DNA of 28,812 nt from a virus (taxonomy: Duplodnaviria > Heunggongvirae > Uroviricota > Caudoviricetes). Made by a program: the position numbers and the translations under genes. The notes under the pieces are model-generated. The model saw only the letters and a list, made by a program, of their open reading frames with translations, was not told where the DNA came from and searched no databases. Where the stretch lies: the IMG/VR virus record IMGVR_UViG_2693429623_000012, one strand, 5' to 3'. This document shows, piece after piece, positions 3,645-28,812 of this stretch; within the stretch, counting starts at the first letter, position 1, and each line of letters opens with the position of its first letter.

Positions 3645-4178
3645 TTACCCATTATCACCATCCTGCGCTTTGTCTTTCTCCAACCACTTCAGCACCGCAG
3701 ACGTACGATAAAGGCTCAGGTAACCACAATTCAGGCAATGCAGCGTGTAATAAGTTTTGCGCATATCAGGTATGCTCTTAACATCACCCAAAAAAGCATA
3801 AGATACATAATGCTTTATGTTCTCTTTAATTAACTCACTCTGTTCCTCCAGGGGTAGATTGTTAAAATTTTCTGGTTTCTTATTTTTATCCCAGCAAAGA
3901 TCCATACTTTCTGGAACAGATAATCGCGACGATCCACATGAAGGGCAGACACTGGAGACCCCCTTCTCAGACAAGAAACGGAAGAAGATTTCTGGCGTAA
4001 TCTCCATCAGCCGCTCTTTATGTTTTNNNNNNNNNNNNNNNNNNNNNNNNNNNNNNNNNNNNNNNNNNNNNNNCGACTTCTTATTGATTTCATCAGCTTC
4101 TTCTTTGCATTTATCTTCTATATATTTCGATAGTAAATAGTCATATAACTCTTTTTTTGTAGGTTTTTTTATTTCCAT
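3645..4178 (-). CDS. Lys-rich protein with two CxxC pairs (CPSCG ... CLNCG), a putative zinc ribbon; unknown function; interrupted by an assembly gap so true length is uncertain
   Basis: ORF track 3645..4178 (16 X residues from the N run). Start ATG at 4178 lies 2 nt after the int stop (TAA at 4183-4181, minus strand) and is preceded by GGGAGGA inside the int 3' end. AT-rich (roughly 40% GC by eye). Confidence 0.55.
   Translation of the reverse strand: MEIKKPTKKELYDYLLSKYIEDKCKEEADEINKKSXXXXXXXXXXXXXXXXKHKERLMEITPEIFFRFLSEKGVSSVCPSCGSSRLSVPESMDLCWDKNKKPENFNNLPLEEQSELIKENIKHYVSYAFLGDVKSIPDMRKTYYTLHCLNCGYLSLYRTSAVLKWLEKDKAQDGDNG
4027..4073. other. Assembly gap (47 N)
   Basis: Run of n characters; not biological sequence. 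Confidence 0.99.
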
Positions 4179-12949: not shown

Positions 12950-12963
12950 CTCAAGGGGGATTA

Positions 12964-13149: not shown

Positions 13150-13189
13150 AGGTAAGTCACACTAGGTGTTTTTTAGTTGATTTTATAAA

Positions 13190-13216: not shown

Positions 13217-13640
13217 TTTTTTTGAACGACTTTTTGCCCTTCCGGCCCGCGTGGCGGCTGGATCCGTCAAGGATCCGTGCATGCACAAAAAAACGCGTTT
13301 TTTCTGCGCGCAGGTGACGGGGGAACAGCCCGCGTTTCAGGGGGTAAATAGCATTCCCTGAACGATGTCGCAGAGATACAACAGAATGGCTGTATTTCTC
13401 ACGCTGAGCGTGAAAAAGACGTGAGGGCTTTTGATTTGATGGGGTGAAAGGTAAGGCCGTCAAAATCGCACTGAGACGGCGAGAATATGCAGTCAACGAG
13501 GTGGGATTGCGTAAGAGTCTGACTGTCGATGATGGCAATCAGCAGGAAAGCGTCGTGAAATTATCTGACTGATACAGGAGCTGGAGAGTCGGGGCATAAA
13601 TTTTTTATGCCCCGGCGAAGCAGCAGACAAGCGAAGCGCG

Positions 13641-14687
13641 TCAGGATGTGGGCTGGGTGTCTAACAGTGCGTAAGGGTTAAAGCGGATCACCTCTTCGCC
13701 AAGCCAGTCATTGATGTGCTTCATGGCCTCCATGACGGGCATCAGCTCGTTAATTGCGTAAACCCGCGCGGCCTTCTCCACATCACCAAACGCACTTTTT
13801 TCGCCCGGCATCGCCCCCATCAGTTGCGGCGGAACGCGGTGCGCAGCCAGCACATCATCACGGGATGCCGCCTTAACATTCATGAACTCATCCTTTGCGG
13901 TGATCTGCTGGAACGGCAAAATTTGCACCCCCTCTTTGCCCCCGTTGGGCGCATGAATGAGCACGTTTTTAAACGCACCACCACCACGTGCCCCCTGTAG
14001 CGTTTCTTTCAGGGAGTCCATGCTTTCGCGGTTTACCTGCGCTGCACCGATGTAGATGATGCACCCGGCGTGGGATCCGTTGTCGTAGTACAGTTTTCTG
14101 AACATGTCCGCCGAATGAGAAAGGCTGGCCGAGAGTAATGCGCCAAGATATTCCGGCATGCCGTAGATTTCCTGGTTAATATCCGGATTCATCAGGTGGC
14201 ACACTTTGCCAGGACGAAACTGAAACGCATCCTTGCCATCCTGCACATACCACCATGATTCAAGATCGCTTCCGCGTCGCATGTATTTCGCCAGGGCGTG
14301 CCGTAATTTAAGCGGTTCGCCGAGCATATTGCTCCGAAGCTCAAGGAATGCGTTACCGAACACAAACCAGTCCAGCGCCAGCGCCGAGAAATCCTGCCGG
14401 GAAAGCAGCGGGTGCGGAATATAGCAGCCGAGCAATACATTGCGCTTAAAGTAAAGCGCAGACTGATGCCAGGACGTTTGCCGGGCAGCTCTTGCCAGAC
14501 CGTACCAGTCCACCGGGGTTTCATACCACCGCCCGTTATCAGCACAGTACATATTGTCCAGCAGGTCATGCCCGGTCAGGCGGTAAGGACCATCAAATGT
14601 GAATGCACTGAGCGACGATTCTTTCCTGAGCGCATCAGCGAGATCAATGCGTGAACTCATGCGCACTTTTTTATTTTTTCTGCTCAT
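13641..14687 (-). CDS. Q: Portal protein, P2 gpQ-like (348 aa)
   Basis: ORF track 13641..14687; size and position match P2 Q (last gene of the leftward P-Q operon); start codon overlaps the P stop. Confidence 0.85.
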   Translation of the reverse strand: MSRKNKKVRMSSRIDLADALRKESSLSAFTFDGPYRLTGHDLLDNMYCADNGRWYETPVDWYGLARAARQTSWHQSALYFKRNVLLGCYIPHPLLSRQDFSALALDWFVFGNAFLELRSNMLGEPLKLRHALAKYMRRGSDLESWWYVQDGKDAFQFRPGKVCHLMNPDINQEIYGMPEYLGALLSASLSHSADMFRKLYYDNGSHAGCIIYIGAAQVNRESMDSLKETLQGARGGGAFKNVLIHAPNGGKEGVQILPFQQITAKDEFMNVKAASRDDVLAAHRVPPQLMGAMPGEKSAFGDVEKAARVYAINELMPVMEAMKHINDWLGEEVIRFNPYALLDTQPTS

Positions 14688-16438: not shown

Positions 16439-16592
16439 TGCTCCCCCTGAGTAATTACAGGAAGATTACCCGCGCGCGAAACCGTTCTCCTTAACCCCCT
16501 GTTCTGGCCGTTTTCTTACAACAAAAGCCCTTTGTATCAGCCTGTTACGCTTTGCCATCATGACTGAAGAACCAGTCAGAGGGGCAAAAACT
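16439..16592. promoter_or_regulatory. Divergent late promoter region between the P-Q and O-N-M-L operons
   Basis: Only noncoding gap between divergent late operons; contains a TGT-N15-ACA dyad at 16490-16510. The P2 late-promoter activator element is recalled as TGT-N12-ACA, so the motif match is imperfect. Confidence 0.4.
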
Positions 16593-17429
16593 ATGGCTAA
16601 TGAAAAAAAGACATCCCGCAAAAAGTTTCGCGTGGCTGTCTCCGGATCAACTGTTGATGGCCGTGAAATCAGTCCGGTGCATCTGCGTGAAGCCGCCGAG
16701 AACTTCAACCCGGATGTTTACGCTGCCCGCGTGAACGTTGAGCACTATCTCTCGCCATGCCCGTCAAGCGAATTTTCCGCAATGGGCGATGTCACCGCAC
16801 TGAGTACGGAAGACATTACGGAAGGTCCGCTGGCCGGACGTACTGCGCTGTATGCAGAAATCGAACCGACCGAGCGCATGAAGCAGCTTGTCGCGGACGG
16901 CAAGAAAATCTATTCCAGTATCGAACTGCACCCGCAGTTCTCCGTTAACGGGCGCGCCTATCTGGTCGGGCTGGCGATGACCGACACCCCGGCAAGCCTG
17001 GGCACTGAGCGCCTGAAATTCACGGCACAGCAACGTCAGGCGGTGATGACGTTCAACAGTATCCAGGGTGAAGCACCGCTTATCTCCGAAGCCATCGAGT
17101 CTGAAATCATCGAAATGGCAGAACAACGCCAGGAAGAAGGCACCCAGTGGTTTAACCGCGTAATGGGGATTATTGGTCGTGGCCGCAAAGCGGATGACGC
17201 CAGTTTCTCCCGTATTCAGGAAGCGGTGGAAAGCGTCGCAACGTCACAGGCCGACATTATCGACCGTTTTAATGCGCTGGAAACACGCCATCAGCAGGAC
17301 AGCCAGAAAATCACTTTACTGACCACGGAGCTGACAGCACTGAAGGAAAAACTGCGCACGCAGGACGGCGATCCGCAGAACCGGTTCACCGCAACGGGCG
17401 CAGCCTCCGACCAGCTGGCTGACTTCTGA
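16593..17429 (+). CDS. O: Capsid scaffolding protein, P2 gpO-like (about 278 aa)
   Basis: ORF track 16560..17429; start moved to the ATG at 16593 (MANEKKTSRKKFRVAVSGSTVDGREISPVHL...), preceded by GAGGGG; parallels P2 O N-terminus (MAKKVSKFFRIGVEGDTCDGRVISAQDI..., recalled). Confidence 0.85.
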   Translation: MANEKKTSRKKFRVAVSGSTVDGREISPVHLREAAENFNPDVYAARVNVEHYLSPCPSSEFSAMGDVTALSTEDITEGPLAGRTALYAEIEPTERMKQLVADGKKIYSSIELHPQFSVNGRAYLVGLAMTDTPASLGTERLKFTAQQRQAVMTFNSIQGEAPLISEAIESEIIEMAEQRQEEGTQWFNRVMGIIGRGRKADDASFSRIQEAVESVATSQADIIDRFNALETRHQQDSQKITLLTTELTALKEKLRTQDGDPQNRFTATGAASDQLADF

Positions 17430-17452
17430 TAAGACAAAGGAGCAAATTTTTT

Positions 17453-18505
17453 ATGAATCTGGTGATGTCAGATATTACCCGCAACAAGCTGGGTTGCTAT
17501 ATGGCGCAGCAGGCGTCGCTTAACAATATCCCGGTTTCTGCACTGGTATCGCGATTTACCGTGGAACCTGCGGTGCAGCAACGTTTTGAAAACGCCTCAA
17601 AGGATAGCACCGAACTTACAAAAAAAATTAACGTGATCGGCGTGACCGACCAGAAAGGCGAAAAAATCCTCCTGGACACCACAGGACCGATTGCACGCAC
17701 AAATACCAGTTATGACGGAACAAAACGCCGTAACCCGAATAACGTGGTTGATCTGAAAAACCGCAAATACCAGTGCGAACAGGTGAACTACGACACGTTT
17801 ATTTCGTATCCGCAGCTTGATGCCTGGTCGGCACACAGCGATTTTCAGTCCCGCATCAGCGCACAGATTGCCCGACAGGTGGCACTTGACCGCATCATGA
17901 TCGGTTTCAACGGCACATCTCACGCGGATGAGTCCAACTTCAGCACCAACAAGCTGCTTCAGGACGTTAACGTGGGGTGGCTGGAGCACATCAGAACCAA
18001 TGCCAGCGAGCGCGTAATGAATGACGTGACGCTGACTTCCCGCAACATGGACAACACCGTGGCGCACGCGGGTAAATACGCGAACCCTGATGCACTGGTA
18101 CAGGACGCGCGCTCATCTCTGCTGGATGAATGGCACAAGGAAGCTGACGACCTCGTGGTGATTATGGGGCGCAACCTGTTTAACTCGCTGCGTCTGCCAG
18201 TGCTGAACAGCATCAGCGGCCAGAATCCCAATGCGGAATTACTTGCCGGGCAGCTCATCCTGTCATCGCGCACCATTGGCGGGCTGGGTGTGTTCCTTGC
18301 ACCGTTCTTCCCGGATGCAACGATGCTGATCACCTCATTCAACAACCTGTCGATTTACTGGCAGAAAGGTTCAATGCGTCGTCTGATGAAAGACGAACCG
18401 GAATACAACCGCATCGCCACCTACCAGTCCATCAATGACGCTTATGTCGTTGAAGACTATGGCAAGTGCGCGATGGTCACTGGCCTGAAGTTCGCCGACA
18501 GCTAA
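17453..18505 (+). CDS. N: Major capsid protein, P2 gpN-like (350 aa)
   Basis: ORF track 17453..18505; AAGGAG upstream; similar to P2 N (for example ...FTVEP...KYECDQ...IMIGFNGT...LSIYW...YVVEDY...). Confidence 0.9.
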   Translation: MNLVMSDITRNKLGCYMAQQASLNNIPVSALVSRFTVEPAVQQRFENASKDSTELTKKINVIGVTDQKGEKILLDTTGPIARTNTSYDGTKRRNPNNVVDLKNRKYQCEQVNYDTFISYPQLDAWSAHSDFQSRISAQIARQVALDRIMIGFNGTSHADESNFSTNKLLQDVNVGWLEHIRTNASERVMNDVTLTSRNMDNTVAHAGKYANPDALVQDARSSLLDEWHKEADDLVVIMGRNLFNSLRLPVLNSISGQNPNAELLAGQLILSSRTIGGLGVFLAPFFPDATMLITSFNNLSIYWQKGSMRRLMKDEPEYNRIATYQSINDAYVVEDYGKCAMVTGLKFADS

Positions 18506-18550
18506 TCAACTCACGGCGGGCATCATGCCCGCCTGTAACGGAGAGAAAAA

Positions 18551-19351
18551 ATGATTACTCCTGCACAGCAACACTGGCAGAACGTGATGGCACAGCGCGC
18601 AGGCCGGGCGAATGAAGGTGTGGACCACGCCGCGCGTACCGCGCATGAAGAGGTGCTGTATCGTCTGCGTCTGGCACAGGCCCGGCTTAAGGGCGTACAG
18701 GCCAGAAGCGCGAAAGCCGACATCAAAAAAGCGTTGTTGCCGGACTTTTCCGGCTGGATTGAGGGAACGCTGGAGGCTGACGGCGGGCAACAGGACGAAG
18801 TGATTGCCACGCTGATGGTGTGGGCGATTGACTGCGGCGATCTTCCGCTTGCGCTGCGTATTGGTGCGTATGCGGTCCGTCACAACCTCATCATGCCGGA
18901 TAACTTTGGCCGTACTGCTGCCACAGTGCTGACCGAAGAAATCTGCAATCCGGTACTGACGCAGGCCGGGACGGATGCCGACGCGGATTTGTCCGTCTTT
19001 ATCGAACCACTGGACACACTTTGGGAAATTGTCGCCAACCAGGATATGCCGGACGAAGTGCGCGCCAAATTATGCAAGGCGTGCGCCTTTGCCCGCCGTG
19101 GCCTGAGCGATGCGGACAGCATGGCCTCATCACTGAAGCTGCTGCGCGAAGCGATGCATCTGAACCAGAACGCAGGTGTGAAACGCGAGATTGCAACCCT
19201 TTCCCGCGCCCTGAAAAAAGCCGATTCCGCAGCCGCACCAGAAGACGCCAGCGCACAGCAGGCGCAGGACGAAAGCAGCGAAAGTAAAAAGACAACGCGG
19301 AAGCCTGCAACACGAAAAACCACCGCGACGCAGAAGGCGAAGCGCGGTTAA
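18551..19351 (+). CDS. M: Terminase small/endonuclease subunit, P2 gpM-like (266 aa)
   Basis: ORF track 18551..19351; contains ...ADMPDEVRAKL...AGVKREI..., closely matching P2 M as recalled; basic C-terminal tail. Confidence 0.85.
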   Translation: MITPAQQHWQNVMAQRAGRANEGVDHAARTAHEEVLYRLRLAQARLKGVQARSAKADIKKALLPDFSGWIEGTLEADGGQQDEVIATLMVWAIDCGDLPLALRIGAYAVRHNLIMPDNFGRTAATVLTEEICNPVLTQAGTDADADLSVFIEPLDTLWEIVANQDMPDEVRAKLCKACAFARRGLSDADSMASSLKLLREAMHLNQNAGVKREIATLSRALKKADSAAAPEDASAQQAQDESSESKKTTRKPATRKTTATQKAKRG

Positions 19352-19452
19352 CGACTGACCCCGTCAGCGGGCGGCGTGCGCGGTGTTCCGGTTTGGCTCC
19401 GTGACCGTTTACACCGCGCACCCACCGCCCGATTTTTTCAGGAGTGAACCCC

Positions 19453-19947
19453 ATGAGTATGGTTGCCAGAACTGAACCCGGACCCGCAGAGGACGACATC
19501 ACCGACACCGAAGATGGCGATACCCGTATTTCAGCGGGTGCATTCTGGCCGGATATTGTGCTGCGCGAGCTGCGTCTGGCGGTACGACTGCCGGGCCGCG
19601 TGACCACCTCCCGCCTGCTGCATACCGCCACCGGGGCCGTGGCACACGTTACCCGCGAGCTGGAAGCATGGCAGCAGGAACAGCAGGCGGCTGGCCATCA
19701 GACGCTGGCCGATGTTCCGGCACCTGTAATTAACGGAGAAAGCGTCAATCTCTGGCACTGGCGCAATGCTGTTTATACCGCCACACGCGCCCTGATTCTG
19801 GAGCGTTACCGCGATGCGGACACAACGGACAAGGGCGACCGCCGGGCGGACGCACTGGATATACAGACATCGGATTTGTGGCGCGATGTGAGCTGGGCCA
19901 TCTCTGACATTCTGTGCCGCCCGCGAATCTTTGCGGAGTTGTGCTGA
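19453..19947 (+). CDS. L: Head completion/stabilisation protein, P2 gpL-like (about 164 aa)
   Basis: ORF track 19444..19947 (GTG); preferred ATG at 19453 after AGGAGTG. C-terminal part ...ADVPAPVINGESVNLWHWRNAV...DKGDRRADALDIQTSDLWRDVSWAI... matches P2 L as recalled. Confidence 0.85.
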   Translation: MSMVARTEPGPAEDDITDTEDGDTRISAGAFWPDIVLRELRLAVRLPGRVTTSRLLHTATGAVAHVTRELEAWQQEQQAAGHQTLADVPAPVINGESVNLWHWRNAVYTATRALILERYRDADTTDKGDRRADALDIQTSDLWRDVSWAISDILCRPRIFAELC

Positions 19948-20144
19948 TGAAAGTGAAGACACTGGAAGGCGACACCGTGGATTCGCTCTGTTTCCGGTAC
20001 TACGGCACGACGCAGGGCGTCACCGAAAAGGTGCTGGATGCCAACCCCGGACTCTGCCGACAGGTATTTCTGGAAGCCGGACAGGAGGTGGAAATGCCGG
20101 AGCCGGAGAAGAAAAAACAACGAGAGATGATACAGCTATGGTAA
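19947..20144 (+). CDS. X: Small tail protein, P2 gpX-like (65 aa)
   Basis: ATG at 19947 overlapping the L stop; MKVKTLEGDTVDSLCFRYYGTTQGVTEKVLDANPGL... resembles P2 X (MKTFALQGDTLDAICVRYYGRTEGVVETVLAANPGL, recalled). Confidence 0.8.
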   Translation: MKVKTLEGDTVDSLCFRYYGTTQGVTEKVLDANPGLCRQVFLEAGQEVEMPEPEKKKQREMIQLW

Positions 20145-20440
20145 CAGGTTTTTTTCAGCGGGTGAGTGACTGGATCACCTTCTGGGCATCAGTCACAGCC
20201 ACCACAATAGGCGTGATGACCATCAGTGAAAAAATCGCCCTTGCCGGGTTGTTACTCGGTTCTCTGTCTGCATTACATGCCTGGCGACATCGCCGCCTGA
20301 TGGAAACCGCCATGCAGCGTCGCAATGAACTCATCGCCAGTATCCTGGCGCAGTCAGACGCACGGCCACTTCACGACAGTGAGCGTCAGGCTCTGAACAT
20401 TCTGCGGGATAACGATACACATGATAAAGCTGCCCGTTAA
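20138..20440 (+). CDS. Holin, two predicted TM helices (100 aa)
   Basis: In-frame ATG at 20138 within ORF track 19931..20440; hydrophobic segments ITFWASVTATTIGVMTI and IALAGLLLGSLSALHAW; charged C-terminus; sits immediately before the endolysin. Confidence 0.7.
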   Translation: MVTGFFQRVSDWITFWASVTATTIGVMTISEKIALAGLLLGSLSALHAWRHRRLMETAMQRRNELIASILAQSDARPLHDSERQALNILRDNDTHDKAAR

Positions 20441-20969
20441 ACGTTACGCCGTAGCCGCCATTGTGGCGCTGGGGTTCTCCATTGCCCCTCACAAACTCCG
20501 GACCAGCCCGGAAGCGCAAATCCGCATTGCCACATGGGAGGACTGTCGCGCAACGCCTTACCGGGATATTGCCGGGGTAATGACCGTGGGGTGCGGCTCG
20601 ACCGGGCATGTGGAAAATCGTCTGTACACCGAAACGGAAGTCGCCGGGCGCTGGGTTAATGATATGCAACATGCAGAAAACTGCATAAATCAGAACTTCA
20701 GCGGCAACGCCATGCCACAGTCCGCGTTTGAGGCAATGACAGATGCCGCCTTTAATCTTGGATGCAGAAATCTTATGTGGTTCAGGGATAAGAACCGTAA
20801 CTACCACCGCACCACTATCTGGAAACATGCACAGGCGCACAACTGGCCTGACATGTGCAACAGACTGACTGACTTCGTGAACAGCGGCGGCGAACGCTCA
20901 CAGGGACTGGTTAACCGTCGTACTGATTTTCGTGCATGGTGCTTACGTGACACCGGAGGCCAGTCATGA
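20421..20969 (+). CDS. Endolysin, T4-lysozyme-like muramidase with N-terminal signal-anchor-release (SAR) segment (182 aa)
   Basis: Hydrophobic N-terminal segment YAVAAIVALGFSIAP followed by the catalytic triad spacing E-x8-D-x5-T (WEDCRATPYRDIAGVMT), as in phage P21-type SAR endolysins (established family feature). Confidence 0.8.
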   Translation: MIKLPVKRYAVAAIVALGFSIAPHKLRTSPEAQIRIATWEDCRATPYRDIAGVMTVGCGSTGHVENRLYTETEVAGRWVNDMQHAENCINQNFSGNAMPQSAFEAMTDAAFNLGCRNLMWFRDKNRNYHRTTIWKHAQAHNWPDMCNRLTDFVNSGGERSQGLVNRRTDFRAWCLRDTGGQS

Positions 20970-21439
20970 AAGTGCGTTACATCCTGATGATGGCACTGAC
21001 CGTCCTCACGCTGCTGACCATAACACTCTGGCAGACATTCAGACTGGGGCAGGAAGACGGACACAACCGTTATACACAGGCGCAACTGGACGATTACAGC
21101 CGGACCCTGAAAGAGGCCGGCACCATCATCAGCACCGCATCCGGTGTACTGCGTGACGTCATGACAGCGCGCCAGAACCGACAACAGGAAGGGGAAATCC
21201 GACGTGAACAGCTACGCAACGATATCACGACAGATGCATGTGCCCGCGCTGTTCCTGACGCTCGCTTTACTGAGCGGTTGCACCAGCACGCAGAACGCGT
21301 CCGCGCCGCCGCCGTCGTTCCGTTTCATCCCGGAAGGGCTGACCGCCCCCGTACTTCCCCCGCCGTTTCCGGTGACGCCATCATGGGGAAACATCGGGAT
21401 ATGGAGCGACAGCCTCATGGACGCACTGGAAACCTGTAA
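20966..21439 (+). CDS. Inner-membrane spanin component (Rz/LysB-like, 157 aa)
   Basis: N-terminal TM helix (ILMMALTVLTLLTITLW) then a charged coiled-coil region; follows the endolysin; start overlaps the endolysin stop. Confidence 0.65.
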   Translation: MKVRYILMMALTVLTLLTITLWQTFRLGQEDGHNRYTQAQLDDYSRTLKEAGTIISTASGVLRDVMTARQNRQQEGEIRREQLRNDITTDACARAVPDARFTERLHQHAERVRAAAVVPFHPGRADRPRTSPAVSGDAIMGKHRDMERQPHGRTGNL

Positions 21440-21524
21440 CGCCGATAAGCGGGCCATTGAATTACTGGAACAGCGCAGGCTGCAACGACTGAACAACGAG
21501 GACAACAACCATGCTGAAAACTGA
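21234..21524 (+). CDS. Outer-membrane lipoprotein spanin component (Rz1/LysC-like), embedded out of frame in and extending beyond the i-spanin gene
   Basis: ORF track 21204..21524 (GTG); ATG at 21234 gives MHVPALFLTLALLSGC with a lipobox, followed by a Pro-rich region, typical of o-spanins. Confidence 0.55.
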   Translation: MHVPALFLTLALLSGCTSTQNASAPPPSFRFIPEGLTAPVLPPPFPVTPSWGNIGIWSDSLMDALETCNADKRAIELLEQRRLQRLNNEDNNHAEN

Positions 21525-21978
21525 TTCCCTGCGTGAAGCCATGACCCGTTCATGCCGGTGGTGTCATGCCAACCCGGAAAAATTCACCATTTTCGTGGAG
21601 AGCGGCAACATTGAAACGACCGGAGAAACCCCATCGTTTGTTTACCGCTATCAGATAGTGATGTTTGTCATGGATTACGCCGGAGAGCTGGACGACCTCA
21701 CGCTGCCGCTGCTGGCGTGGTTATCCGAAAATCAGCCACAGTTGTTGCTCAATCCGGAGCGTAATCAGGACATCAAATTTTCCGCCGTTATCAATGACGA
21801 TGACAGCGCCGATCTCCTGTTTACGCTCCCCCTGCGGGAACGCGTTCGCATCACGCGCAGCAGTCAGGGCACACCGCAGGCAGAACACCTGCCGGAGCCA
21901 AAACCCCGCCTGCCCTCTTCCGAAGGCGACTGGTCGCATGTATTCCAGGATGTGACGTGGGGGGAAAGCGATGGATAA
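21511..21978 (+). CDS. R: Tail completion protein, P2 gpR-like (155 aa)
   Basis: ORF track 21511..21978; same length as P2 R; MLKTDSLREAM...LPLLAWLSENQP... parallels P2 R (MLKPDSLRRAL...VPVLAWLRENQP..., recalled). Confidence 0.8.
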   Translation: MLKTDSLREAMTRSCRWCHANPEKFTIFVESGNIETTGETPSFVYRYQIVMFVMDYAGELDDLTLPLLAWLSENQPQLLLNPERNQDIKFSAVINDDDSADLLFTLPLRERVRITRSSQGTPQAEHLPEPKPRLPSSEGDWSHVFQDVTWGESDG

Positions 21979-22606
21979 GGCATTCACCCGCGTGGATGAA
22001 ACCTTTGAGGCTATCCGCGACAGCCTGAATCAGCAGGCCATTAATAACATCGCCAGAAAGCTGGCACAGGATTTACGCCGCGCCCAGCAGGCGCGTATCC
22101 GGTCACAGAAAGCGCCGGACGGGACCGCATGGACACCACGCAGACGCCGCGTAACCCGGATACAGGAGCGCATTCGCTTTATCTGGAATAACGAAGCACG
22201 CACGCTGAAAAACTGGCATCACGACACGGGGAAATACGGGCGAACCATCACCGGGTGGGATGAGGATAAAAACAATATCCGCACGTTTTACCGGGATGAC
22301 ATCGACCGTTTTCTGGAAATACGCACCCGGCGCATCAACCAGGACAGCACCAGGCGCGTCTCCATGTTCGTAAAACTGCGCACCGCCCGCTACCTGAAAG
22401 CCCGTGCAGATGCTTCCGGTGTGACGGTGGGTTACAGCGGCGTGGCCGCACGTATTGCACGCGTTCATCAGTTCGGTGAGCGCGATCAGGTTGCGCCGGG
22501 CATTTTCACCGATTACCCGGTACGTGAGCTGCTGGGTATCAGCCAGGCAGATGAGCGCCTGATTTATAACACGGTGCTGGGCCGGATTGCGGAGGCTGTA
22601 CGATGA
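21971..22606 (+). CDS. S: Virion morphogenesis/tail completion protein, P2 gpS family (211 aa)
   Basis: ORF track 21971..22606; N-terminal region ...IARKLAQDLRRAQQARIRSQKAPDGTAWTP... is typical of the family; position between R and V. Confidence 0.7.
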   Translation: MDKAFTRVDETFEAIRDSLNQQAINNIARKLAQDLRRAQQARIRSQKAPDGTAWTPRRRRVTRIQERIRFIWNNEARTLKNWHHDTGKYGRTITGWDEDKNNIRTFYRDDIDRFLEIRTRRINQDSTRRVSMFVKLRTARYLKARADASGVTVGYSGVAARIARVHQFGERDQVAPGIFTDYPVRELLGISQADERLIYNTVLGRIAEAVR

Positions 22607-23184
22607 GCGCAGAACTCATGCGACTGCTGAGCAATATCATCCGCACCGGGATCATCTCTGAAGTTGATGAGGAATCCTGGTGCGTGCGCGTTCGCAGCGG
22701 CGAACTGGAAACAGGCTGGCTGCGCTGGAACACCACGCGCGCGGGAGACTTCAACGTGTGGTTTCCGCCATCACCAGGCGAACAGGTGGCAATTGCCTGC
22801 ATCGGCGGCAACCCGGAAACCGCCATGATAATCGGCAGCCTGTGGAGTGATGCCATTCCGGCACCCGGCAAAAGCCTGAAAGAAATCGTGGTCAGCGCGC
22901 CGGACGGCGCGGTGTTCCGCTACGACGCGGACGCAGGCGCACTGAGCGCAAGCGGCATGAAAACGGCCACTTTGCAGGCATCCATCAGCGTGACACTGAA
23001 CACGCCTGTCGTGGAATGCACAGACCTTCTGAGAACAGCGACGCTTGACGTCACAAAAGGGGGAACGATGAGCGGCAATATCACGCACAGCGGCGGCGAT
23101 TTCACCTCAAACGGCATCACAGTGCATACGCATAAGCACGGTGGCGTTAAAGGTGGCAGCGATTCGACAGGAGGCCCGCAGTGA
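22603..23184 (+). CDS. V: Baseplate spike/assembly protein, P2 gpV-like (193 aa)
   Basis: ORF track 22603..23184; ...IRTGII...GWL.W...RAG...GEQV...DGAV...TLDVTKGGTMSGNITHSGGDFTSNGITVHTHKHGG... closely matches P2 V as recalled. Confidence 0.9.
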   Translation: MSAELMRLLSNIIRTGIISEVDEESWCVRVRSGELETGWLRWNTTRAGDFNVWFPPSPGEQVAIACIGGNPETAMIIGSLWSDAIPAPGKSLKEIVVSAPDGAVFRYDADAGALSASGMKTATLQASISVTLNTPVVECTDLLRTATLDVTKGGTMSGNITHSGGDFTSNGITVHTHKHGGVKGGSDSTGGPQ

Positions 23185-23531
23185 CAACCCGCTACACAGG
23201 AATGAACCCGGACGGGACGGGAAACCTGAACGATATGGCGCACCTGAAACAGTCAGTCAGGGACATCCTGACCACCCCGCTGGCAAGCCGGGTTATGCGA
23301 CGGGAATATGGCAGCCTTGTGCCTGATTTGATTGACGAACCCATGAATAACACCACGCGTCTGCAATGCATGAGTGCTACCGTGATTGCACTGACACGAT
23401 GGGAACCACGCATTGCCCTGAACGCCATCGACGTTGTCTGGAAGGCAGGAGGCCACGCCGGGGTGACGCTGTCGGGCACTGTCATGCAGACCATGCAGAA
23501 TGTTGAATTAACCATCACGCTGAGGGAGTAA
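23181..23531 (+). CDS. W: Baseplate wedge protein, P2 gpW-like (116 aa)
   Basis: ORF track 23181..23531 (GTG start overlapping the V stop); size and position match P2 W (115 aa). Confidence 0.8.
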   Translation: MTTRYTGMNPDGTGNLNDMAHLKQSVRDILTTPLASRVMRREYGSLVPDLIDEPMNNTTRLQCMSATVIALTRWEPRIALNAIDVVWKAGGHAGVTLSGTVMQTMQNVELTITLRE

Positions 23532-23534
23532 ATC

Positions 23535-24431
23535 ATGCCTGCCGTTGACCTTTCCCAGTTACCGGAACCCGCCATCATCGCGGAGCCTGACTTTGAGGCA
23601 ATTCTGGCTGACACAAAGGCCATGATGATTGCAGCTTATCCCGCCGAACAGCGTGAAGTCGTCTCCGCCGCACTGGAACTGGAATCGGAACCCCTGAACG
23701 TTATCGCTCAAACCATGTCGTTTCGTGAAATGCTGTTACGCCAGCGGGTCAATGAGGCCGCACGCGCCTGCATGTTGAGCCACAGCGCCGGAACAGACCT
23801 GGACAACCTCGCGGGCAATATGAACACAAAGCGCCTGGTTATCACTCCGGCAACGGATACCACCGACGTGGTGATGGAGAACGACACCTCGCTGAGACTG
23901 CGGGCGCAGCGGGCGTATGACGGCCTGAGTGTTGCAGGCCCGTCAGGCGCATACGAGTATTTTGCCCGCAGCGCCAGCGGTCTGGTGCGCGATGCGCGGG
24001 CCATCAGTCCGTCTCCGGCAAATGTGACGGTTTCCATCCTGTCCACTGAGGGCGACGGCACAGCAACGGAGGCGTTGCTTAATACCGTTCGCGCCGTTCT
24101 GAATGCAGAGGATACCCGCCCGGTGGCCGACCGCCTGACCGTACAGAGTGCCAGAATCGTGACATGGCGGCTGAATGCAAAACTGTACTTTTACCCCGGT
24201 CCGGAATCCGAACCTATTCTGGCTGCGGCTGAATCGTCGTTCAGGAAGTGGCTGGCTGAGCAGGGGCTTATCGGTCAGGACGTGGCGTTGTCCGCCATTG
24301 CTGCCGCACTGCATGTGCACGGTGTGCAACGCGTGGAGATAATCGAACCCACACAGAATATGGCCATCAGCGACATACAGGCGGCGCGCTGTGAGTCATT
24401 CACCATCAGCGAAGGTGGGCGTAATGAGTAA
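23535..24431 (+). CDS. J: Baseplate protein, P2 gpJ-like (298 aa)
   Basis: ORF track 23535..24431; MPAVDLSQLPEPAIIAEPDFEAILADTKAMMIAAYP... vs P2 J MPIIDLNQLPAPDVVEELDFESILAERKATLISLYP... (recalled); C-terminal ...HVHGVQRVEI... also conserved. Confidence 0.9.
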   Translation: MPAVDLSQLPEPAIIAEPDFEAILADTKAMMIAAYPAEQREVVSAALELESEPLNVIAQTMSFREMLLRQRVNEAARACMLSHSAGTDLDNLAGNMNTKRLVITPATDTTDVVMENDTSLRLRAQRAYDGLSVAGPSGAYEYFARSASGLVRDARAISPSPANVTVSILSTEGDGTATEALLNTVRAVLNAEDTRPVADRLTVQSARIVTWRLNAKLYFYPGPESEPILAAAESSFRKWLAEQGLIGQDVALSAIAAALHVHGVQRVEIIEPTQNMAISDIQAARCESFTISEGGRNE

Positions 24432-24954
24432 TTCACTGTTACCACCATCAGCCAGCAATTTCATGCGTTGTGCCGAAGCCGTCGGAACACGCATTACAGA
24501 CATTCCGGCAGACCTCAACACGCTGTGGTCGCCGGACACCTGCCCGGTGCATCTGCTGCCTTATCTCGCCTGGGCGTTTTCCGTTGACCGCTGGGATCGC
24601 AACTGGCCGGAAGAGACAAAGCGACAGGTGATTCGTGATGCATGGCTGATACACCGACACAAAGGAACCATCAGCGCCCTGCGACGGGCCATTGAGCCGC
24701 TGGGATACCTCATTCGCGTGTCTGAGTGGTGGGAGTTCAACGGCGAACCCGGAACATTCAAGATTGATGTTGGCACGCTGGACAGTGGCGTGACGGAGGA
24801 AATGTATCTGGAAATGGAGCGGTTGATTGCTGATGCCCGCCCGGTCAGCCGCCACATGACAGGGCTGAATATCATTCAGGAGATTCAGGGAGATATTTTC
24901 GCGGCAGCAGCAACTTACGACGGTGAAGTCATTACCATTTATCCGGACGATTAA
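24424..24954 (+). CDS. I: Baseplate protein, P2 gpI-like (176 aa)
   Basis: ORF track 24391..24954; start moved to the ATG at 24424 (MSNSLLPPSASNF...), overlapping the J 3' end; length equals P2 I (176 aa). Confidence 0.85.
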   Translation: MSNSLLPPSASNFMRCAEAVGTRITDIPADLNTLWSPDTCPVHLLPYLAWAFSVDRWDRNWPEETKRQVIRDAWLIHRHKGTISALRRAIEPLGYLIRVSEWWEFNGEPGTFKIDVGTLDSGVTEEMYLEMERLIADARPVSRHMTGLNIIQEIQGDIFAAAATYDGEVITIYPDD

Positions 24955-24956
24955 GC

Positions 24957-25825
24957 ATGAGTACCACAACACGAAAATTTAAAACCATTATCACCGATAC
25001 GGGTGCAAAAAAATTAGCGCAGGCAACCGCGCCAGATGGGAAACCTGTCCGCCTGACACATATGGCCGTGGGTGACGGCGGCGGTACTTTACCCACGCCA
25101 GACAGTAAGCAGACCCGTCTTGTGCATGAGGTGTGGCGACATACCGTTAATCGCGTCACCCTGGACGCAACACATCAGAACCACATTATTGCGGAGCTGG
25201 TTATTCCTCCTGAAACGGGCGGATTCTGGATCCGGGAAATTGGTGTGTTTGATGAGCACGGCGATTTGATCGCGGTAGGCAATACTGCCGAAAGTTACAA
25301 GCCAACCGTTGCCGAAGGATCCGGACGTGCACAAACATTTCGCACCATTCTGACCGTATCCAGCACTGCCACTGTGGCGCTTACCGTGGATAACACCATG
25401 GTGATGGCCACAGTGAATTACGTGGATGACAAACTGAAAGAGCATGAACAGTCACGACGTCACCCGGACGCCTCGCTGACCGCAAAAGGCCTTGTCCAGC
25501 TCAGCAACGCCACCAACAGCACGTCTGAAACGCTGGCAGCGACACCAAAAGCCGTTAAGGCAGTAATGGATGAAACGAACAAGAAAGCCCCATTAAACAG
25601 CCCGGCACTGACCGGAACGCCAACAACACCAACTGCGCGACAGGGAACGAATAATACCCAAATCGCAAGCACGGCTTTCGTTATGGCTGCGATTGCCGCA
25701 CTTGTAGACTCTTCGCCTGATGCACTGAACACACTGAACGAGCTGGCGGCGGCGCTGGGCAACGACCCGAATTTTGCGACCACCATGACTAACGCGCTTG
25801 CGGGTAAGCAACCGAAAGATGCCAC
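24957..25825 (+). CDS. H: Tail fibre protein, P2 gpH-like, 3' end truncated by assembly gap
   Basis: ORF track 24957..25907 runs through the N run; only 24957..25825 is real sequence. Follows I as in P2. The C-proximal part shares a near-identical segment with the downstream stf gene. Confidence 0.85.
25493..25825. repeat. Copy 1 of a ~330-bp near-identical direct repeat (tail-fibre module shared by H and stf)
   Basis: 25493-25825 aligns with 27740-28072; exact identity over at least 90 bp (25606-25698 vs 27852-27949), scattered mismatches elsewhere. Copy 1 ends exactly at the N gap. Confidence 0.9.
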
Positions 25826-25852
25826 NNNNNNNNNNNNNNNNNNNNNNNNNNN
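25826..25852. other. Assembly gap (27 N) joining P2-like and lambdoid material
   Basis: Run of n characters placed at the end of the shared repeat; sequence on the two sides belongs to different phage modules. Confidence 0.99.
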
Positions 25853-26209
25853 TACAGCGATACCCGCTGGCATGAAGATTCCGTGCGTAACCGCTGGTTC
25901 AGCGTGATGGCGGGGCCGTCTGTACGCGTGAATGAATGGTTCAGCGCGTATGCGATGGTGGGTGTGGCTTACAGCCGTGTGTCGACTTTCTCCGGGGATT
26001 ATCTCCGCGTAACTGACAACAAGGGGAAAACGCACGATGTGCTGACCGGAAGTGATGACGGTCGCCACAGCAACACGTCTCTGGCGTGGGGGGCTGGCGT
26101 GCAGTTTAACCCGACCGAATCCGTGACCATTGACCTTGCTTATGAAGGTTCCGGTAGTGGTGACTGGCGAACGGATGCATTTATTGTTGGTATCGGATAC
26201 CGTATCTGA
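25853..26209 (+). CDS. lom: Ail/Lom-family outer-membrane beta-barrel protein, 3' fragment (5' end missing at the gap)
   Basis: Reading frame open from the gap edge: YSDTRWHEDSVRNRWFSVMAGPSVRVNEWFSAYAM...SLAWGAGVQFNPTESVTIDLAYEGSGSGDWRTDAFIVGIGYRI, matching the lambda Lom C-terminal half as recalled. Confidence 0.85.
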   Translation, partial: YSDTRWHEDSVRNRWFSVMAGPSVRVNEWFSAYAMVGVAYSRVSTFSGDYLRVTDNKGKTHDVLTGSDDGRHSNTSLAWGAGVQFNPTESVTIDLAYEGSGSGDWRTDAFIVGIGYRI

Positions 26210-26314
26210 CAACAGACGCCGATTTATCTTCTGTAAATATTGTTATGATACGCAGGTTCATCCACCTTATGGGGTGAACTGCGTTTGAGGAAACGTAAAG
26301 TTACACTGTCCTGA

Positions 26315-26348
26315 AGCCCGTGGCGTCACTGCTGCGGGCTTTTTTTAT
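26315..26348 (+). terminator. Possible intrinsic terminator downstream of lom
   Basis: AGCCCG-(14-nt loop)-CGGGCT followed by TTTTTTTATT (26340-26348). The loop is long, so confidence is limited. Confidence 0.4.
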
Positions 26349-26360
26349 TGGTGGAAAAGT

Positions 26361-28812
26361 ATGACAGTAAAAATTTCTGGCGTGCTTAAAGATGGCACAG
26401 GAAAACCAGTACAGAACTGCACCATTGTGCTGAAGGCCAGACGAACCAGCAGCACGATGGTGGTGAACACGGTGGCCTCTGAAAATCCGGATGAAGCCGG
26501 ACGTTACAGCATGGATGTTGAGCATGGTCAGTACAGCGTCACCCTGCTGGTTGAAGGTTTTCCGCCTTCACATGCCGGGACCATTACCGTCTATGAAGGT
26601 TCCAGACCAGGTACGCTGAATGATTTTCTCGGTGCCATGACGGAGGATGATGTCCGACCGGAGGCACTGCGCCGCTTTGAGCAGATGGTGGAAGAGGTGT
26701 CACGTAACGCCTCCGCGGTTGCACAGAATACGGCAGCCGCGAAAAAATCAGCCAGCGAGGCGGCAACTCATGCAACCGATGCTGCAGCCTCAGCACGTGC
26801 CGCCAGCACGTCAGCCGGACAGGCCGCGTCGTCGGCTCAGTCAGCGTCTTCCAGCGCAGGAACGGCATCGACAAAGGCCCGTGAAGCAGCAAAAAGTGCT
26901 GCTGCAGAGTCATCAAAAAGCGCGGCAGCTACCAGCGCCAGTGCCGCGAAAACGTCAGAAACGAATGCCGCAGCATCACAAAAATCGGCAGCCACTTCTG
27001 CATCCACAGCGACCACGAAGGCGTCAGAAGCTGCCACCTCGGCACGGGGTGCGGCGGCCTCAAAAGAGGCAGCGAAATCTTCAGAAACGAATGCATCATC
27101 AAGTGCCAGTAGTGCAGCTTCCTCGGCAACGGCGGCAGGAAATTCCGCGAAGGCGGCAAAAACGTCCGAGACGAACGCTAAGTCTTCTGAAACAGCAGCG
27201 GGACAGAGCGCCTCAGCTGCGGCAGGTTCAAAAACAGCGGCTGCATTATCTGCCAGTGCCGCGTCAACAAGTGCCGGGCAGGCCTCAGCCAGTGCCACCG
27301 CCGCCGGAAAATCGGCAGAAAGCGCCGCATCATCCGCTTCAACAGCCACAACGAAGGCTGGCAAAGCCACTGAGCAAGCCACTGCAGCAGCGAGGTCTGC
27401 TTCTGCAGCAAAAACCTCTGAAACAAATGCAAAGACTTCAGCAGACAATGCTGCTTCCTCTAAGGCAGCAGCCGCATCGTCAGCCAGTTCAGCGGCGTCA
27501 TCGGCATCATCTGCGTCTGCTTCAAAAGATGAGGCGACCAGACAAGCGTCAGCAGCGAAAGGTAGTGCCACGACAGCAACAACGAAAGCATCAGAGGCGG
27601 CAGGCAGTGCGACGGCTGCATCTCAGAGCAAAGTTGCTGCTGAATCCGCGGCAACGCGCGCCGAGACAGCAGCAAAACGGGCAGAGGATATTGCATCCGC
27701 CGTGGCGCTTGAGGATGCGAGCACGACGAAAAAGGGGATAGTACAGCTCAGCAGTGCGACCAACAGCACTTCCGAGTCACTGGCGGCAACGCCAAAAGCG
27801 GTTAAGGCGGTAATGGGTGAAACGAACAAGAAAGCGCCCTTAAATAGTCCTGCACTGACCGGAACGCCAACAACACCAACTGCGCGACAGGGAACGAATA
27901 ATACCCAAATCGCAAGCACGGCTTTCGTTATGGCTGCGATTGCCGCCCTTGTAGATTCGTCACCTGATGCACTGAACACGCTGAACGAGCTGGCTGCGGC
28001 GCTGGGCAACGACCCGAATTTTGCGACCACCATGACTAACGCGCTTGCGGGTAAGCAACCGAAAGATGCCACTCTGACGGCGCTGGCGGGGCTTGCTACT
28101 GCGGCAGACAGGTTTCCGTATTTTACGGGGAATGATGTCGCCAGCCTGGCAACCCTGACAAAAGTCGGGCGGGATATTCTTGCGAAATCGACCGTTGCTG
28201 CCGTTATCGAATACCTCGGTTTACAGGAAACGGTAAACAAGGCTGGTAACGCCGTTCAGCGTTCCGGCGATAAAATGACCGGAGAACTGAAAATTGGCAC
28301 GGTGAATGCGCTGCGAATTTTCAATGATACCTTCGGTCTAATTTTCCGTCGTTCAGAAGATTTTCTTCATTTCATTCCGACGGCTGAAGGACAAGGCGAA
28401 AACGGTAATATCGGCCCATTAAGGCCATTCGCTATAAATCTGAGAACAGGTGCTATATCTGTCAGCCACGGGGCCAAAATTAAAGGAGGTCTAGCTATTG
28501 GAGCTACTGATAACGCACTGGGTGAAAACTCCATTGTTCTGGGAGATAACGACACCGGATTTAGGCAAGATGGAGATGGTATTATTAGCTTCTATTCAAA
28601 TGGTTCGCGCATCGGACATATTGATGAGTTAGGATTACATCTTTATAAAGATATTGAATCTAATGGCAGCAATTTTAGATTAAAAAGTAATTACCGCCAC
28701 CACATTACATTCGCCAACGAAGACGGAAGAATTCGTATGTTTTTGTGGAAAGATAACGGTGGTGATGGTGTTCATATTAATAACGGTTCAGATGGTGGTG
28801 GTGATTTCATTT
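26361..28812 (+). CDS. stf: Side tail fibre protein, lambda Stf-like (partial, continues past window end)
   Basis: My own translation from the ATG at 26361 is open to the end of the window (not in the ORF track because there is no stop): MTVKISGVLKDGTGKPVQNCTIVLKARR...SMDVEHGQYSV..., then a long Ala/Ser/Thr-rich repeat region, then ...KKGIVQLSSATNSTSESLAATPKAVKAV...ALAGKQPKDATLTALAGL..., matching lambda Stf as recalled. Confidence 0.9.
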   Translation, partial: MTVKISGVLKDGTGKPVQNCTIVLKARRTSSTMVVNTVASENPDEAGRYSMDVEHGQYSVTLLVEGFPPSHAGTITVYEGSRPGTLNDFLGAMTEDDVRPEALRRFEQMVEEVSRNASAVAQNTAAAKKSASEAATHATDAAASARAASTSAGQAASSAQSASSSAGTASTKAREAAKSAAAESSKSAAATSASAAKTSETNAAASQKSAATSASTATTKASEAATSARGAAASKEAAKSSETNASSSASSAASSATAAGNSAKAAKTSETNAKSSETAAGQSASAAAGSKTAAALSASAASTSAGQASASATAAGKSAESAASSASTATTKAGKATEQATAAARSASAAKTSETNAKTSADNAASSKAAAASSASSAASSASSASASKDEATRQASAAKGSATTATTKASEAAGSATAASQSKVAAESAATRAETAAKRAEDIASAVALEDASTTKKGIVQLSSATNSTSESLAATPKAVKAVMGETNKKAPLNSPALTGTPTTPTARQGTNNTQIASTAFVMAAIAALVDSSPDALNTLNELAAALGNDPNFATTMTNALAGKQPKDATLTALAGLATAADRFPYFTGNDVASLATLTKVGRDILAKSTVAAVIEYLGLQETVNKAGNAVQRSGDKMTGELKIGTVNALRIFNDTFGLIFRRSEDFLHFIPTAEGQGENGNIGPLRPFAINLRTGAISVSHGAKIKGGLAIGATDNALGENSIVLGDNDTGFRQDGDGIISFYSNGSRIGHIDELGLHLYKDIESNGSNFRLKSNYRHHITFANEDGRIRMFLWKDNGGDGVHINNGSDGGGDFI
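27740..28072. repeat. Copy 2 of the ~330-bp direct repeat shared with gene H
   Basis: See copy 1; here the repeat continues into ...actctgacggcgctggcggggctt..., the sequence expected to follow where copy 1 is cut by the gap. Confidence 0.9.

What the first reader, a model, noticed from the sequence alone, without database searches (positions are those of the whole stretch)
25493..28072. Near-identical 330-bp tail-fibre segment shared by P2-like H and lambdoid stf, coinciding with a scaffold gap
The H segment 25493-25825 is almost identical to the stf segment 27740-28072, with exact identity over at least 90 bp. The 27-N gap begins at the last base of the H copy. The sequence after the gap is a lambdoid lom fragment, not P2 gene G or the tail sheath genes. 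Two conclusions follow. First, the join between H and lom is probably a scaffolding decision across a repeat, so contiguity here is unproven. Second, a P2-like and a lambdoid prophage in this genome share a tail-fibre module, a classic substrate for horizontal exchange of host-range determinants and for prophage-prophage recombination.
Basis: seen in the sequence. Interest (0 to 1): 0.65.

Follow-up and report, generated by a model that had tools for sequence, protein, structure and literature searches.

The report
Shared tail-fibre module breaks an assembly
Two prophages in this Shigella/E. coli genome carry the same well-known tail-fibre module, which ends at a DNA-invertase crossover site; a short-read assembler broke on it, so the join from the P2-like fibre gene to the lambdoid lom gene is most likely an artefact.

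Summary
The repeat is real. Window 25493-25825 matches 27740-28072 at 306/333 (91.9%), in the same codon phase, with exact blocks of 95 and 77 nt. The 27-N run (25826-25852) and the lom fragment after it are also real.

In an intact H gene that is 100% identical to the window's H contig, the homology runs about 185 nt further, roughly 530 nt in all. It ends about 30 nt past a 26-bp Gin/Cin/Pin-type invertase crossover site, present in stf at 28204-28229. This is the conserved end of the constant part of enterobacterial phage fibre genes (P2 H, lambda stf, Mu S, P1 S), upstream of exchangeable or invertible receptor-binding parts. It is long known.

The H contig ends on the last base of a block that is exactly 77 nt in a sister S. 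sonnei assembly. The window's stf then carries H alleles at six sites (28073-28111). This looks like a k=77 de Bruijn break with a path switch, though a real conversion tract is not excluded.

None of 5,426 complete E. coli genomes has H next to lom. Close relatives have an intact H, and a J-lom-stf locus with a full-length lom. The join is therefore probably an artefact, but why the scaffolder made it is unexplained. Low novelty.

The parts
24957..25825 (+). 5' 869 nt (aa 1-289 of 678) of the P2-like tail-fibre gene H, cut by the contig end
   Evidence: 100% identical to the intact H genes of NZ_CP065615 (L001) and CP026836 (L003). Pfam finds the Phage_tail_fib N-terminal domain and Phage_fiber_2 at aa 173-213.
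25484..25825 (+). H copy of the shared fibre module, truncated (342 of about 530 nt)
25749..25825 (+). 77-nt exact block shared with stf 27996-28072; the H contig ends on its last base
   Evidence: Between the intact H (L003) and the sister stf (L013) this block is exactly 77 nt, bounded by mismatches at 25748 and 25826.
25826..25852 (.). 27-N scaffold gap; the join is unverified
   Evidence: The flanks are not colinear in any reference. There is no overlap or microhomology between the expected continuations.
25853..26209 (+). 3' part of lambdoid lom (Ail/Lom outer-membrane protein), lacking about 81 N-terminal residues
   Evidence: Pfam Ail_Lom profile 82-198/199, E = 9e-71. It maps to L013 from position 9493, inside a full-length 199-aa lom that follows J.
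26313..26342 (+). Terminator-like hairpin between lom and stf
   Evidence: consensus scan only
26361..28811 (+). Lambdoid side tail-fibre gene stf, first 817 of 917 codons; runs off the window
   Evidence: Open frame. Pfam phage_tail_N at aa 1-134. P0001, S. sonnei Stf of 917 aa, is about 100% identical.
27731..28255 (+). stf copy of the shared module, complete (stf aa 452-633 correspond to H aa 171-352)
   Evidence: There are 26 synonymous and 4 non-synonymous codon differences in 176 codons.
28073..28111 (+). Patch where the window's stf carries H-type alleles at 6 of 6 diagnostic sites; the possible extent is 27996-28198
28204..28229 (+). 26-bp DNA-invertase crossover site TTATCGAATACCTCGGTTTACAGGAA (boundary between constant and variable parts)
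   Evidence: Same sequence as the left arm of the inverted repeat flanking the invertible segment in the intact H. Window 28204-28258 matches the annotated Mu 'G-segment boundary' at 89% (H165). The 26-bp site is identical to the EC958 Phi4 5' crossover site in Table 3 of PMC4134206.
28256..28812 (+). Start of the variable, receptor-binding part of stf
   Evidence: Homology to this prophage's H stops here. The same variable part sits in a P2-like H gene in E. coli 4238 at 97%.
4027..4073 (.). First scaffold gap, used as a control: 47 N stand for 14 real bases and the flanks are colinear with references

Best explanation
The repeat is the conserved distal-shaft module that closes the constant part of many enterobacterial phage tail-fibre genes. 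It runs into a 26-bp Gin/Cin/Pin-type invertase crossover site, after which the receptor-binding part is exchangeable and often invertible. This genome is S. sonnei-like. It carries a P2-like prophage next to btuC, whose gene H has the module, and a lambdoid prophage, whose gene stf has it. A short-read de Bruijn assembly could not thread H through the module. The H contig stops on the last base of a 77-nt exact block shared with stf, and the next stretch of H sequence appears inside the stf contig (six H alleles at 28073-28111). The scaffolder then placed the dead-ended H contig in front of a contig that starts inside lom. The H-to-lom adjacency is therefore not biological. In the real chromosome H most likely continues into its invertible segment and tail genes, and lom is full length behind J. 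Shown directly: the repeat, its extent, the crossover site, the position of the contig end, the allele patch, and the normal contexts in relatives. Inferred: the k=77 mechanism, the artefactual nature of the join, and the assumption that the source genome resembles L003 and L013.
For: Repeat and phase. An intact H 100.000% identical to window 14424-25825 (L003) continues to match the window's stf for a further 126 exact nt, one mismatch, then 56 exact nt. Inverted-repeat arms flank a segment of about 3 kb beside a recombinase in L001 and L009. That recombinase is a Mu Gin homologue (PDB 3uj3/4m6f, E about 1e-100). The same 26-bp site is at window 28204-28229. It matches the Mu G-segment boundary and equals the EC958 Phi4 crossover site. 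The module occurs in lambda stf (79%), P1/D6, and Mu and SfMu (crossover region), and in many P2-like H genes. Contig end: the stf (L013) vs H (L003) exact blocks are 95, 77, 87 and 56 nt; the H contig ends at the last base of the 77-nt block; the window's stf is H-type at 6 of 6 sites right after it and stf-type at every other diagnostic site. Join: 0 of 5,426 complete genomes cover both flanks in one place. The junction pattern is absent from genome and metagenome collections. All 8 distinct long contexts of the identical gpI show an intact H. L013 shows J, full-length lom, then stf. Gap 1 is colinear with references, so the N runs are true scaffold gaps. Literature: fibre-gene exchange among unrelated phages, probably driven by the associated invertases, is called well documented (PMC3945230). 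Two prophages in one genome with near-identical crossover sites, one with a truncated invertase served in trans, and assembly trouble at such loci, are described in PMC4134206.
Against: I could not reconstruct why a scaffolder would link the H contig to the lom contig with a small positive gap. Mis-pairing through the repeat predicts an overlap of about -2.2 kb (inference). There is no shared sequence between the expected continuations. Gap 1 shows the scaffolder's estimates are otherwise reasonable (47 vs 14 nt), which slightly favours real read-pair support. The assembler and its k are unknown. The source assembly itself was not found, so 'the true H continues as in L003' is an extrapolation from 11.4 kb of identity. 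The window's stf differs from L013 at other places too (one SNP at 27710 and a GGT indel near 28800). The two isolates are therefore not identical, and the six-site patch could be real.
Confidence: 0.78

Rival explanations
1. The H-to-lom adjacency is real. An illegitimate or IS-mediated rearrangement fused a truncated P2-like prophage to a truncated lambdoid prophage, and the 27 N hide the true junction.
For: The scaffold's other gap is correct and well estimated, so the scaffolder presumably had read-pair links. Repeat-induced mis-pairing does not predict this geometry (inference). Shigella genomes are rich in IS elements and rearrangements; IS copies sit in this very fibre region in L003, L004 and L007.
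Against: No such adjacency occurs in 5,426 complete E. coli genomes, in the long contigs with identical gpI, or in the genome and metagenome pattern scans. Neither contig end carries IS-end sequence: both are pure H and pure lom to the last base. The H contig ends exactly at a repeat k-mer boundary. That is expected for an assembly break and would be a coincidence for a biological breakpoint.
Confidence: 0.1
2. The six H-type alleles in stf (28073-28111) are a real, recent gene-conversion tract of 39-203 nt between the two resident prophage fibre genes. The true exact repeat in this isolate would then be 203 nt, not 77 nt.
For: The patch is flanked by blocks identical in both genes (77 and 87 nt), which are ideal conversion end-points. 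Alleles at these sites are mosaic among other H and stf genes (L011, L012). That shows natural patchwork exchange in this module. The 95-nt exact block within about 85%-identical surroundings also looks like an older exchange.
Against: The switch begins on the base after the H contig's end, and the H contig has no continuation. This is what a de Bruijn path switch or bubble collapse produces. S. sonnei is highly clonal (my own knowledge), so six clustered differences from a sister isolate are unusual unless they are artefactual.
Confidence: 0.25
3. The contig break is caused by population heterogeneity of the invertible H segment (both orientations present in the culture), not by the repeat shared with stf.
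For: The intact relative has a functional-looking Gin homologue. Both orientations of the segment occur among genomes: the 678-aa H in L003 and the 656-aa H in L009. Such inversions are known to create spurious contigs (PMC4134206).
Against: The crossover site lies 128-153 nt beyond the contig end, whereas the end coincides to the base with the shared 77-mer. Heterogeneity may still explain why H could not be threaded through once the graph was tangled.
Confidence: 0.1

Closest known systems
Horizontal exchange of tail-fibre gene segments among P2 H, lambda stf/tfa, Mu S/U, P1 S/U, e14 and p15B (Haggard-Ljungquist et al. 1992; Sandmeier et al. 1992; Sandmeier 1994; seen here only as cited in PMC3945230 and PMC9594776)
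   Same: A P2-type H and a lambdoid stf share a fibre segment at high nucleotide identity. The segment also matches lambda stf, P1 S and the Mu G-segment boundary. The N-terminal virion-attachment domains are phage-specific: PF12571 in H and PF08400 in stf.
   Different: Nothing essential differs. This is one more pair of carriers, both resident in one genome. The original papers could not be read here, so the exact segment boundaries they reported were not compared.
[quoted passage not shown] 2014, PMC4134206)
   Same: A stable 5' part with Phage_fibre_2 repeats is fused to an invertible 3' part. The loci have 26-bp crossover sites, and window 28204-28229 is identical to the Phi4 5' site. Two prophages in one genome have near-identical sites. 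One locus has a truncated invertase (the 60-aa Resolvase remnant in L013) next to a locus with an intact one (L003). These loci cause assembly artefacts.
   Different: The artefact here is a short-read contig break plus a doubtful scaffold join, not extra PacBio contigs. Inversion in the source sample was not tested.
Phage Mu G segment / Gin, P1 C segment / Cin, e14 P segment / Pin (Din-family serine invertase switches)
   Same: The recombinase beside the intact H is a close Gin homologue. It is accompanied by an inverted pair of crossover sites, and by alternative fibre C-termini with their chaperones in opposite orientation.
   Different: The carriers are a P2-like myovirus prophage and a lambdoid siphovirus prophage. 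In the window only one crossover site is visible (stf), and no invertase gene.
Repeat-induced contig breaks and mis-scaffolding in short-read de Bruijn assemblies
   Same: The contig ends exactly k (77) bases into a shared exact block. Alleles of one copy appear in the other copy's contig. The scaffold flanks are not colinear with any finished genome.
   Different: The specific join (H contig to lom contig, +27 nt) is not predicted by simple mis-pairing through this repeat. Its cause remains unexplained.

Membership tests
Din-family (Gin/Cin/Pin) invertible tail-fibre switch | 26-bp crossover site at the boundary between the constant and variable parts of the fibre gene | tested here: met
   Window 28204-28229 is TTATCGAATACCTCGGTTTACAGGAA. 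It is identical to the left arm in the intact H and to the EC958 Phi4 5' site. Window 28204-28258 is 89% identical to the annotated Mu G-segment boundary. The H copy of the site lies beyond the contig end, so it is not in the window.
Din-family (Gin/Cin/Pin) invertible tail-fibre switch | Second crossover site in inverted orientation, 2-4 kb away | not testable with these tools
   The window ends at 28812. In relatives it is present: L001 10558(-)/13633(+), and L013 11844(-)/14757(+).
Din-family (Gin/Cin/Pin) invertible tail-fibre switch | Adjacent small serine recombinase (Resolvase plus HTH_7) | not testable with these tools
   It is not in the window. The H locus of L003 has a 195-aa Gin homologue (E about 1e-100 to PDB 3uj3). 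The stf locus of L013 has only a 60-aa Resolvase remnant.
Din-family (Gin/Cin/Pin) invertible tail-fibre switch | Alternative fibre C-terminus and chaperone encoded in the opposite orientation, with both orientations observed | tested here: met
   Tested in relatives only. L003 (H of 678 aa) and L009 (H of 656 aa) carry the same segment in opposite orientations, with paired Caudo_TAP genes. The orientation mix in the source sample was not tested.
P2 gpH-type tail fibre | Phage_tail_fib N-terminal domain (PF12571) and the gene order baseplate J, I, then H | tested here: met
   PF12571 at aa 6-152, E = 4e-56. Baseplate J and tail protein I lie immediately upstream. 83% nt identity to the H genes of P2-like phages such as Wphi.
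Lambda Stf side tail fibre | Prophage tail fibre N-terminal domain (PF08400) and a position downstream of J and lom | tested here: met
   PF08400 at aa 1-134, E = 3e-69. A lom fragment lies upstream in the window, and the full J-lom-stf order is seen in L012 and L013. The module is 79% identical to lambda orf-401/orf-314.
Scaffolding artefact | Flanks of the N run are not adjacent in finished genomes of close relatives | tested here: met
   0 of 5,426 complete E. coli genomes. Relatives 100% identical on the H side have an intact H. The sister stf contig has a full-length lom after J.
Scaffolding artefact | Read-level evidence (no reads or pairs spanning the join) | not testable with these tools
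   No reads are available and the source assembly was not identified.

The most novel reading that the evidence does not exclude
The window has caught live prophage-prophage recombination in a clonal pathogen. The six-site H-type patch in stf would be a real, very recent gene-conversion tract between a P2-like and a lambdoid fibre gene resident in one chromosome. Less likely, the H-to-lom join is a true hybrid junction. With a single intact Gin-type invertase serving both loci, fibre parts could be shuffled between two unrelated virion types within one cell.
Probability: 0.2. Interest if true: 0.3.

Novelty: already known. Interest (0 to 1): 0.15.

Why it matters
The value is mostly practical. 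The H-to-lom adjacency should not be annotated as a hybrid or truncated prophage. The 316-codon ORF that reads through the Ns (24957-25907) is not a gene. The window's stf may contain a short chimeric stretch. Biologically it is one more example of the modular build of enterobacterial tail fibres: a phage-specific N-terminal anchor, a shared shaft module ending in an invertase crossover site, then an exchangeable receptor-binding part. This has been known since the early 1990s and underlies current host-range engineering of P2 and lambda fibres.

Tried and rejected
1. I searched for the exact junction with 27 Ns in representative genomes and with N{10,40} in metagenome contigs. Neither gave a hit. 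This is a weak negative, and the tool may not match N characters.

2. I tried to find the source scaffold through the ORF that reads through the gap. It is not on record.

3. I tested whether the N runs are masking of real bases. This is rejected: gap 1 holds 47 N where references have 14 nt.

4. I tested whether stf is frameshifted at the repeat, because an ORF ends at 27741. This is rejected: that ORF is in another frame, and stf is open from 26361 to the window end.

5. I looked for overlap or microhomology between the expected continuation of H and the sequence upstream of the lom contig that could explain the join. Only one 12-mer is shared, at unrelated positions.

6. I worked through mis-pairing models via the 95-nt and 77-nt blocks, the 203-nt identity between the window's stf and the reference H, and the shared tfa genes. 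All predict an overlap of about -2.1 to -2.2 kb rather than +27 nt (inference). The join therefore stays unexplained.

7. I checked whether the window's variable stf part equals either variable part of this prophage's H. It does not.

8. I tried to read Haggard-Ljungquist 1992 and Sandmeier 1992. Neither paper is held.
Full report
**1. The observation**

The window has two N runs: 4027-4073 (47 N) and 25826-25852 (27 N). A direct repeat with an offset of 2247 nt links 25484-25825 to 27731-28072.
- The longest exact run is 95 nt (25605-25699), and the last 77 nt before the gap (25749-25825) are exact.
- Chance would give about 14 nt.
- The left copy lies in an ORF starting at ATG 24957. The right copy lies in a frame open from ATG 26361 to the window end. 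Both copies are in the same codon phase.
- The sequence after the gap matches Ail/Lom profile positions 82-198 of 199.

The observation therefore stands.

**2. What the genes are**

Window 24400-25825 is 100% identical to a P2-like prophage in E. coli FDAARGOS_943. There the gene order is baseplate J, I, H (2037 nt), tail-fibre assembly, an inverted second assembly gene and fibre fragment, a recombinase, and then the tail genes.

Window 14424-25825 is 100.000% identical to CP026836.1 (L003), where H is an intact 678-aa protein.
- H has the P2-type N-terminal domain PF12571 and a Phage_fiber_2 repeat at aa 173-213, which is where the shared module starts.
- In complete STEC genomes this kind of prophage sits between btuC and ihfA, and the window begins nlpC-btuDEC-integrase in the same way.

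The right-hand gene has the lambdoid Stf N-terminal domain PF08400. Its only exact relative is a 917-aa S. sonnei protein (P0001). That protein lies on a contig (L013) carrying tape measure, M, L, K, I, J, full-length lom, stf, tfa, an inverted tfa and a 60-aa Resolvase remnant.

**3. True extent and nature of the repeat**

I used the intact H of L003 as a stand-in for the missing part. The homology to the window's stf then continues about 185 nt beyond the contig end.
- The whole module is about 530 nt: H aa 171-352 correspond to stf aa 452-633.
- It has 26 synonymous and 4 non-synonymous codon differences in 176 codons.
- Homology stops abruptly about 30 nt after a 26-bp sequence, TTATCGAATACCTCGGTTTACAGGAA, at window 28204-28229.

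In the intact H locus the same sequence is the left arm of an inverted repeat. Its partner lies about 3 kb away, beside the recombinase.
- The recombinase is a close homologue of Mu Gin (PDB 3uj3/4m6f, E about 1e-100).
- Window 28204-28258 matches the annotated 'G-segment boundary' of phage Mu at 89%.
- The module as a whole matches lambda stf (orf-401/orf-314) at 79%, P1 S at 67%, and many P2-like H genes at 91-95%.
- The 26-bp site is identical to the 5' crossover site of prophage Phi4 in E. coli EC958 (Table 3 of PMC4134206).
- The segment occurs in both orientations among genomes: the 678-aa H in L003 and the 656-aa H in L009.

The receptor-binding part downstream of the site in the window's stf occurs at 97% identity inside a P2-like H gene of E. 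coli 4238. Window 25853-28561, from lom through 28561, occurs at 96.6% in a lambdoid locus of an O121 strain.

The repeat is therefore the conserved end of the constant part of these fibre genes, including the invertase crossover site. Both phage types plug interchangeable receptor-binding cassettes in behind it.

**4. The contig break**

I compared three sequences: the window's stf, the sister S. sonnei stf (L013) and the intact H (L003). The exact blocks between L013 stf and H are 95, 77, 87 and 56 nt.
- The 77-nt block is 25749-25825 in H coordinates and 27996-28072 in stf coordinates, bounded by mismatches on both sides.
- The window's H contig ends on its last base.
- Immediately afterwards, the window's stf carries the H allele at all six diagnostic sites (28073, 28088, 28091, 28095, 28108, 28111).
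- It carries the stf allele at all 30 diagnostic sites upstream, and again from 28199 onward.
- Every copy of this prophage's H has the H pattern at those six sites.

My inference is as follows. In a de Bruijn graph with k = 77, the 77-nt block is the single vertex shared by the two genes. The H path stops there, and the stf path was threaded through the H branch of the following bubble. The H contig was left without a continuation.

A real gene-conversion tract of 39-203 nt would look the same in the consensus, so I give that reading about 0.25. Orientation heterogeneity of the invertible segment (crossover site 128-153 nt further on) may have added to the tangle. It does not explain the exact end point.

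**5. The join**

Gap 1 is a genuine scaffold gap: 47 N replace 14 nt, and the flanks are colinear with complete genomes. Gap 2 is different.
- No place in any of 5,426 complete E. coli genomes covers both flanks.
- The junction pattern is absent from the genome and metagenome collections.
- All eight distinct long contexts of the identical gpI have an intact H.
- The sister stf contig has a full-length lom behind J.
- Neither contig end carries IS sequence.
- The expected continuations share no overlap.

I conclude, with about 0.8 confidence, that the H-to-lom adjacency is not biological.

I could not explain why the scaffolder made this link. Mis-pairing through the repeat, or through the shared tfa genes (82% identity), would imply an overlap of about -2.1 to -2.2 kb rather than a +27-nt gap. 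This remains unexplained and keeps a real junction at about 0.1.

**6. Comparison with what is known**

Exchange of fibre segments among P2 H, lambda stf, Mu S, P1 S, e14 and p15B is described as a well-documented case. It is thought to be driven by the associated invertases (PMC3945230, citing Haggard-Ljungquist 1992, Sandmeier 1992 and Sandmeier 1994. Also PMC9594776).

The EC958 genome paper describes features closely matching those found here (PMC4134206):
- a stable Phage_fibre_2 5' part;
- an invertible 3' part;
- 26-bp crossover sites;
- two prophages in one genome with near-identical sites;
- one truncated invertase presumably served in trans;
- assembly artefacts at these loci.

Nothing here departs from that picture.

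**7. Verdict**

The caution about contiguity is right, and the shared-module point is right but already known. The role of the repeat is to break the contig, not to create the join.

Novelty: already known. Interest: low (0.15). The useful outcomes are a warning against annotating a hybrid prophage or the read-through ORF 24957-25907, and a flag that 28073-28111 in stf may be chimeric.

Noticed in passing
window 4027-4073: The first scaffold gap has 47 N where complete genomes have 14 nt (TTGACACGACTCAT). It lies inside a small ORF between btuC and the prophage integrase, and the flanks are perfectly colinear. The break is in unique, AT-rich sequence, so it probably reflects a coverage drop.
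   Followed up: yes
window 27942-28030 (and 25695-25783): About 240 mycobacteriophage tail or minor-tail genes match this 89-nt stretch at about 78-83% nucleotide identity. At protein level, Solon gp4 shares 30/48 residues (AALVDSxPxxLNTLNELAAALGxDPNFATT). This short fibre motif is conserved across phages of Actinobacteria and Enterobacteria.
   Followed up: partly
window 28150-28812; L011 6001-6663: The receptor-binding part that follows the crossover site in this lambdoid stf occurs at 97% identity in the H gene of a P2-like prophage in E. coli 4238. The same host-range cassette is therefore used by both virion types.
   Followed up: partly
window 10853-12128: The P2-like prophage encodes a plasmid-type partition pair: ParM (StbA_N plus the ParM C-terminal domain, E = 1e-82) and a Plasmid_stab_B protein. 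The pair lies between the replication endonuclease gene and the portal gene.
   Followed up: partly
window 12127-13665 and 20136-21200: Two stretches of the prophage have no megablast match (12127-13187) or only a 94% match (13188-13647) to the otherwise 97-99% identical O26 RM8426 prophage. One is a cargo region before the portal gene, holding a DUF7446 ORF and unassigned ORFs of 174 and 121 aa. The other is the lysis cassette, which is lysozyme-type in L003 and M15 peptidase-type in RM8426.
   Followed up: no
window 26736-27437: The Ala/Ser-rich stretch of stf between the N-terminal domain and the shared module contains a degenerate 33-nt repeat family: five copies at 67-82% identity, all spaced by multiples of 3.
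   Followed up: no
window about 28795-28803 vs L013: The window has one extra GGT (Gly) in a GGT run compared with the sister S. sonnei stf. There is also a single SNP at 27710. The two isolates are therefore close but not identical in this gene.
   Followed up: partly
L013 14837-15019; L003 15956-16543: The lambdoid stf locus keeps only a 60-aa Resolvase remnant, 95% identical in DNA to the 5' end of the intact Gin-like gene of the P2-like prophage. If the stf segment still inverts, it would need that enzyme in trans.
   Followed up: partly
window 24957-25907: A 316-codon ORF reads from H through the 27 N into lom out of frame. Automatic annotation of this scaffold would call a spurious fusion protein.
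   Followed up: yes
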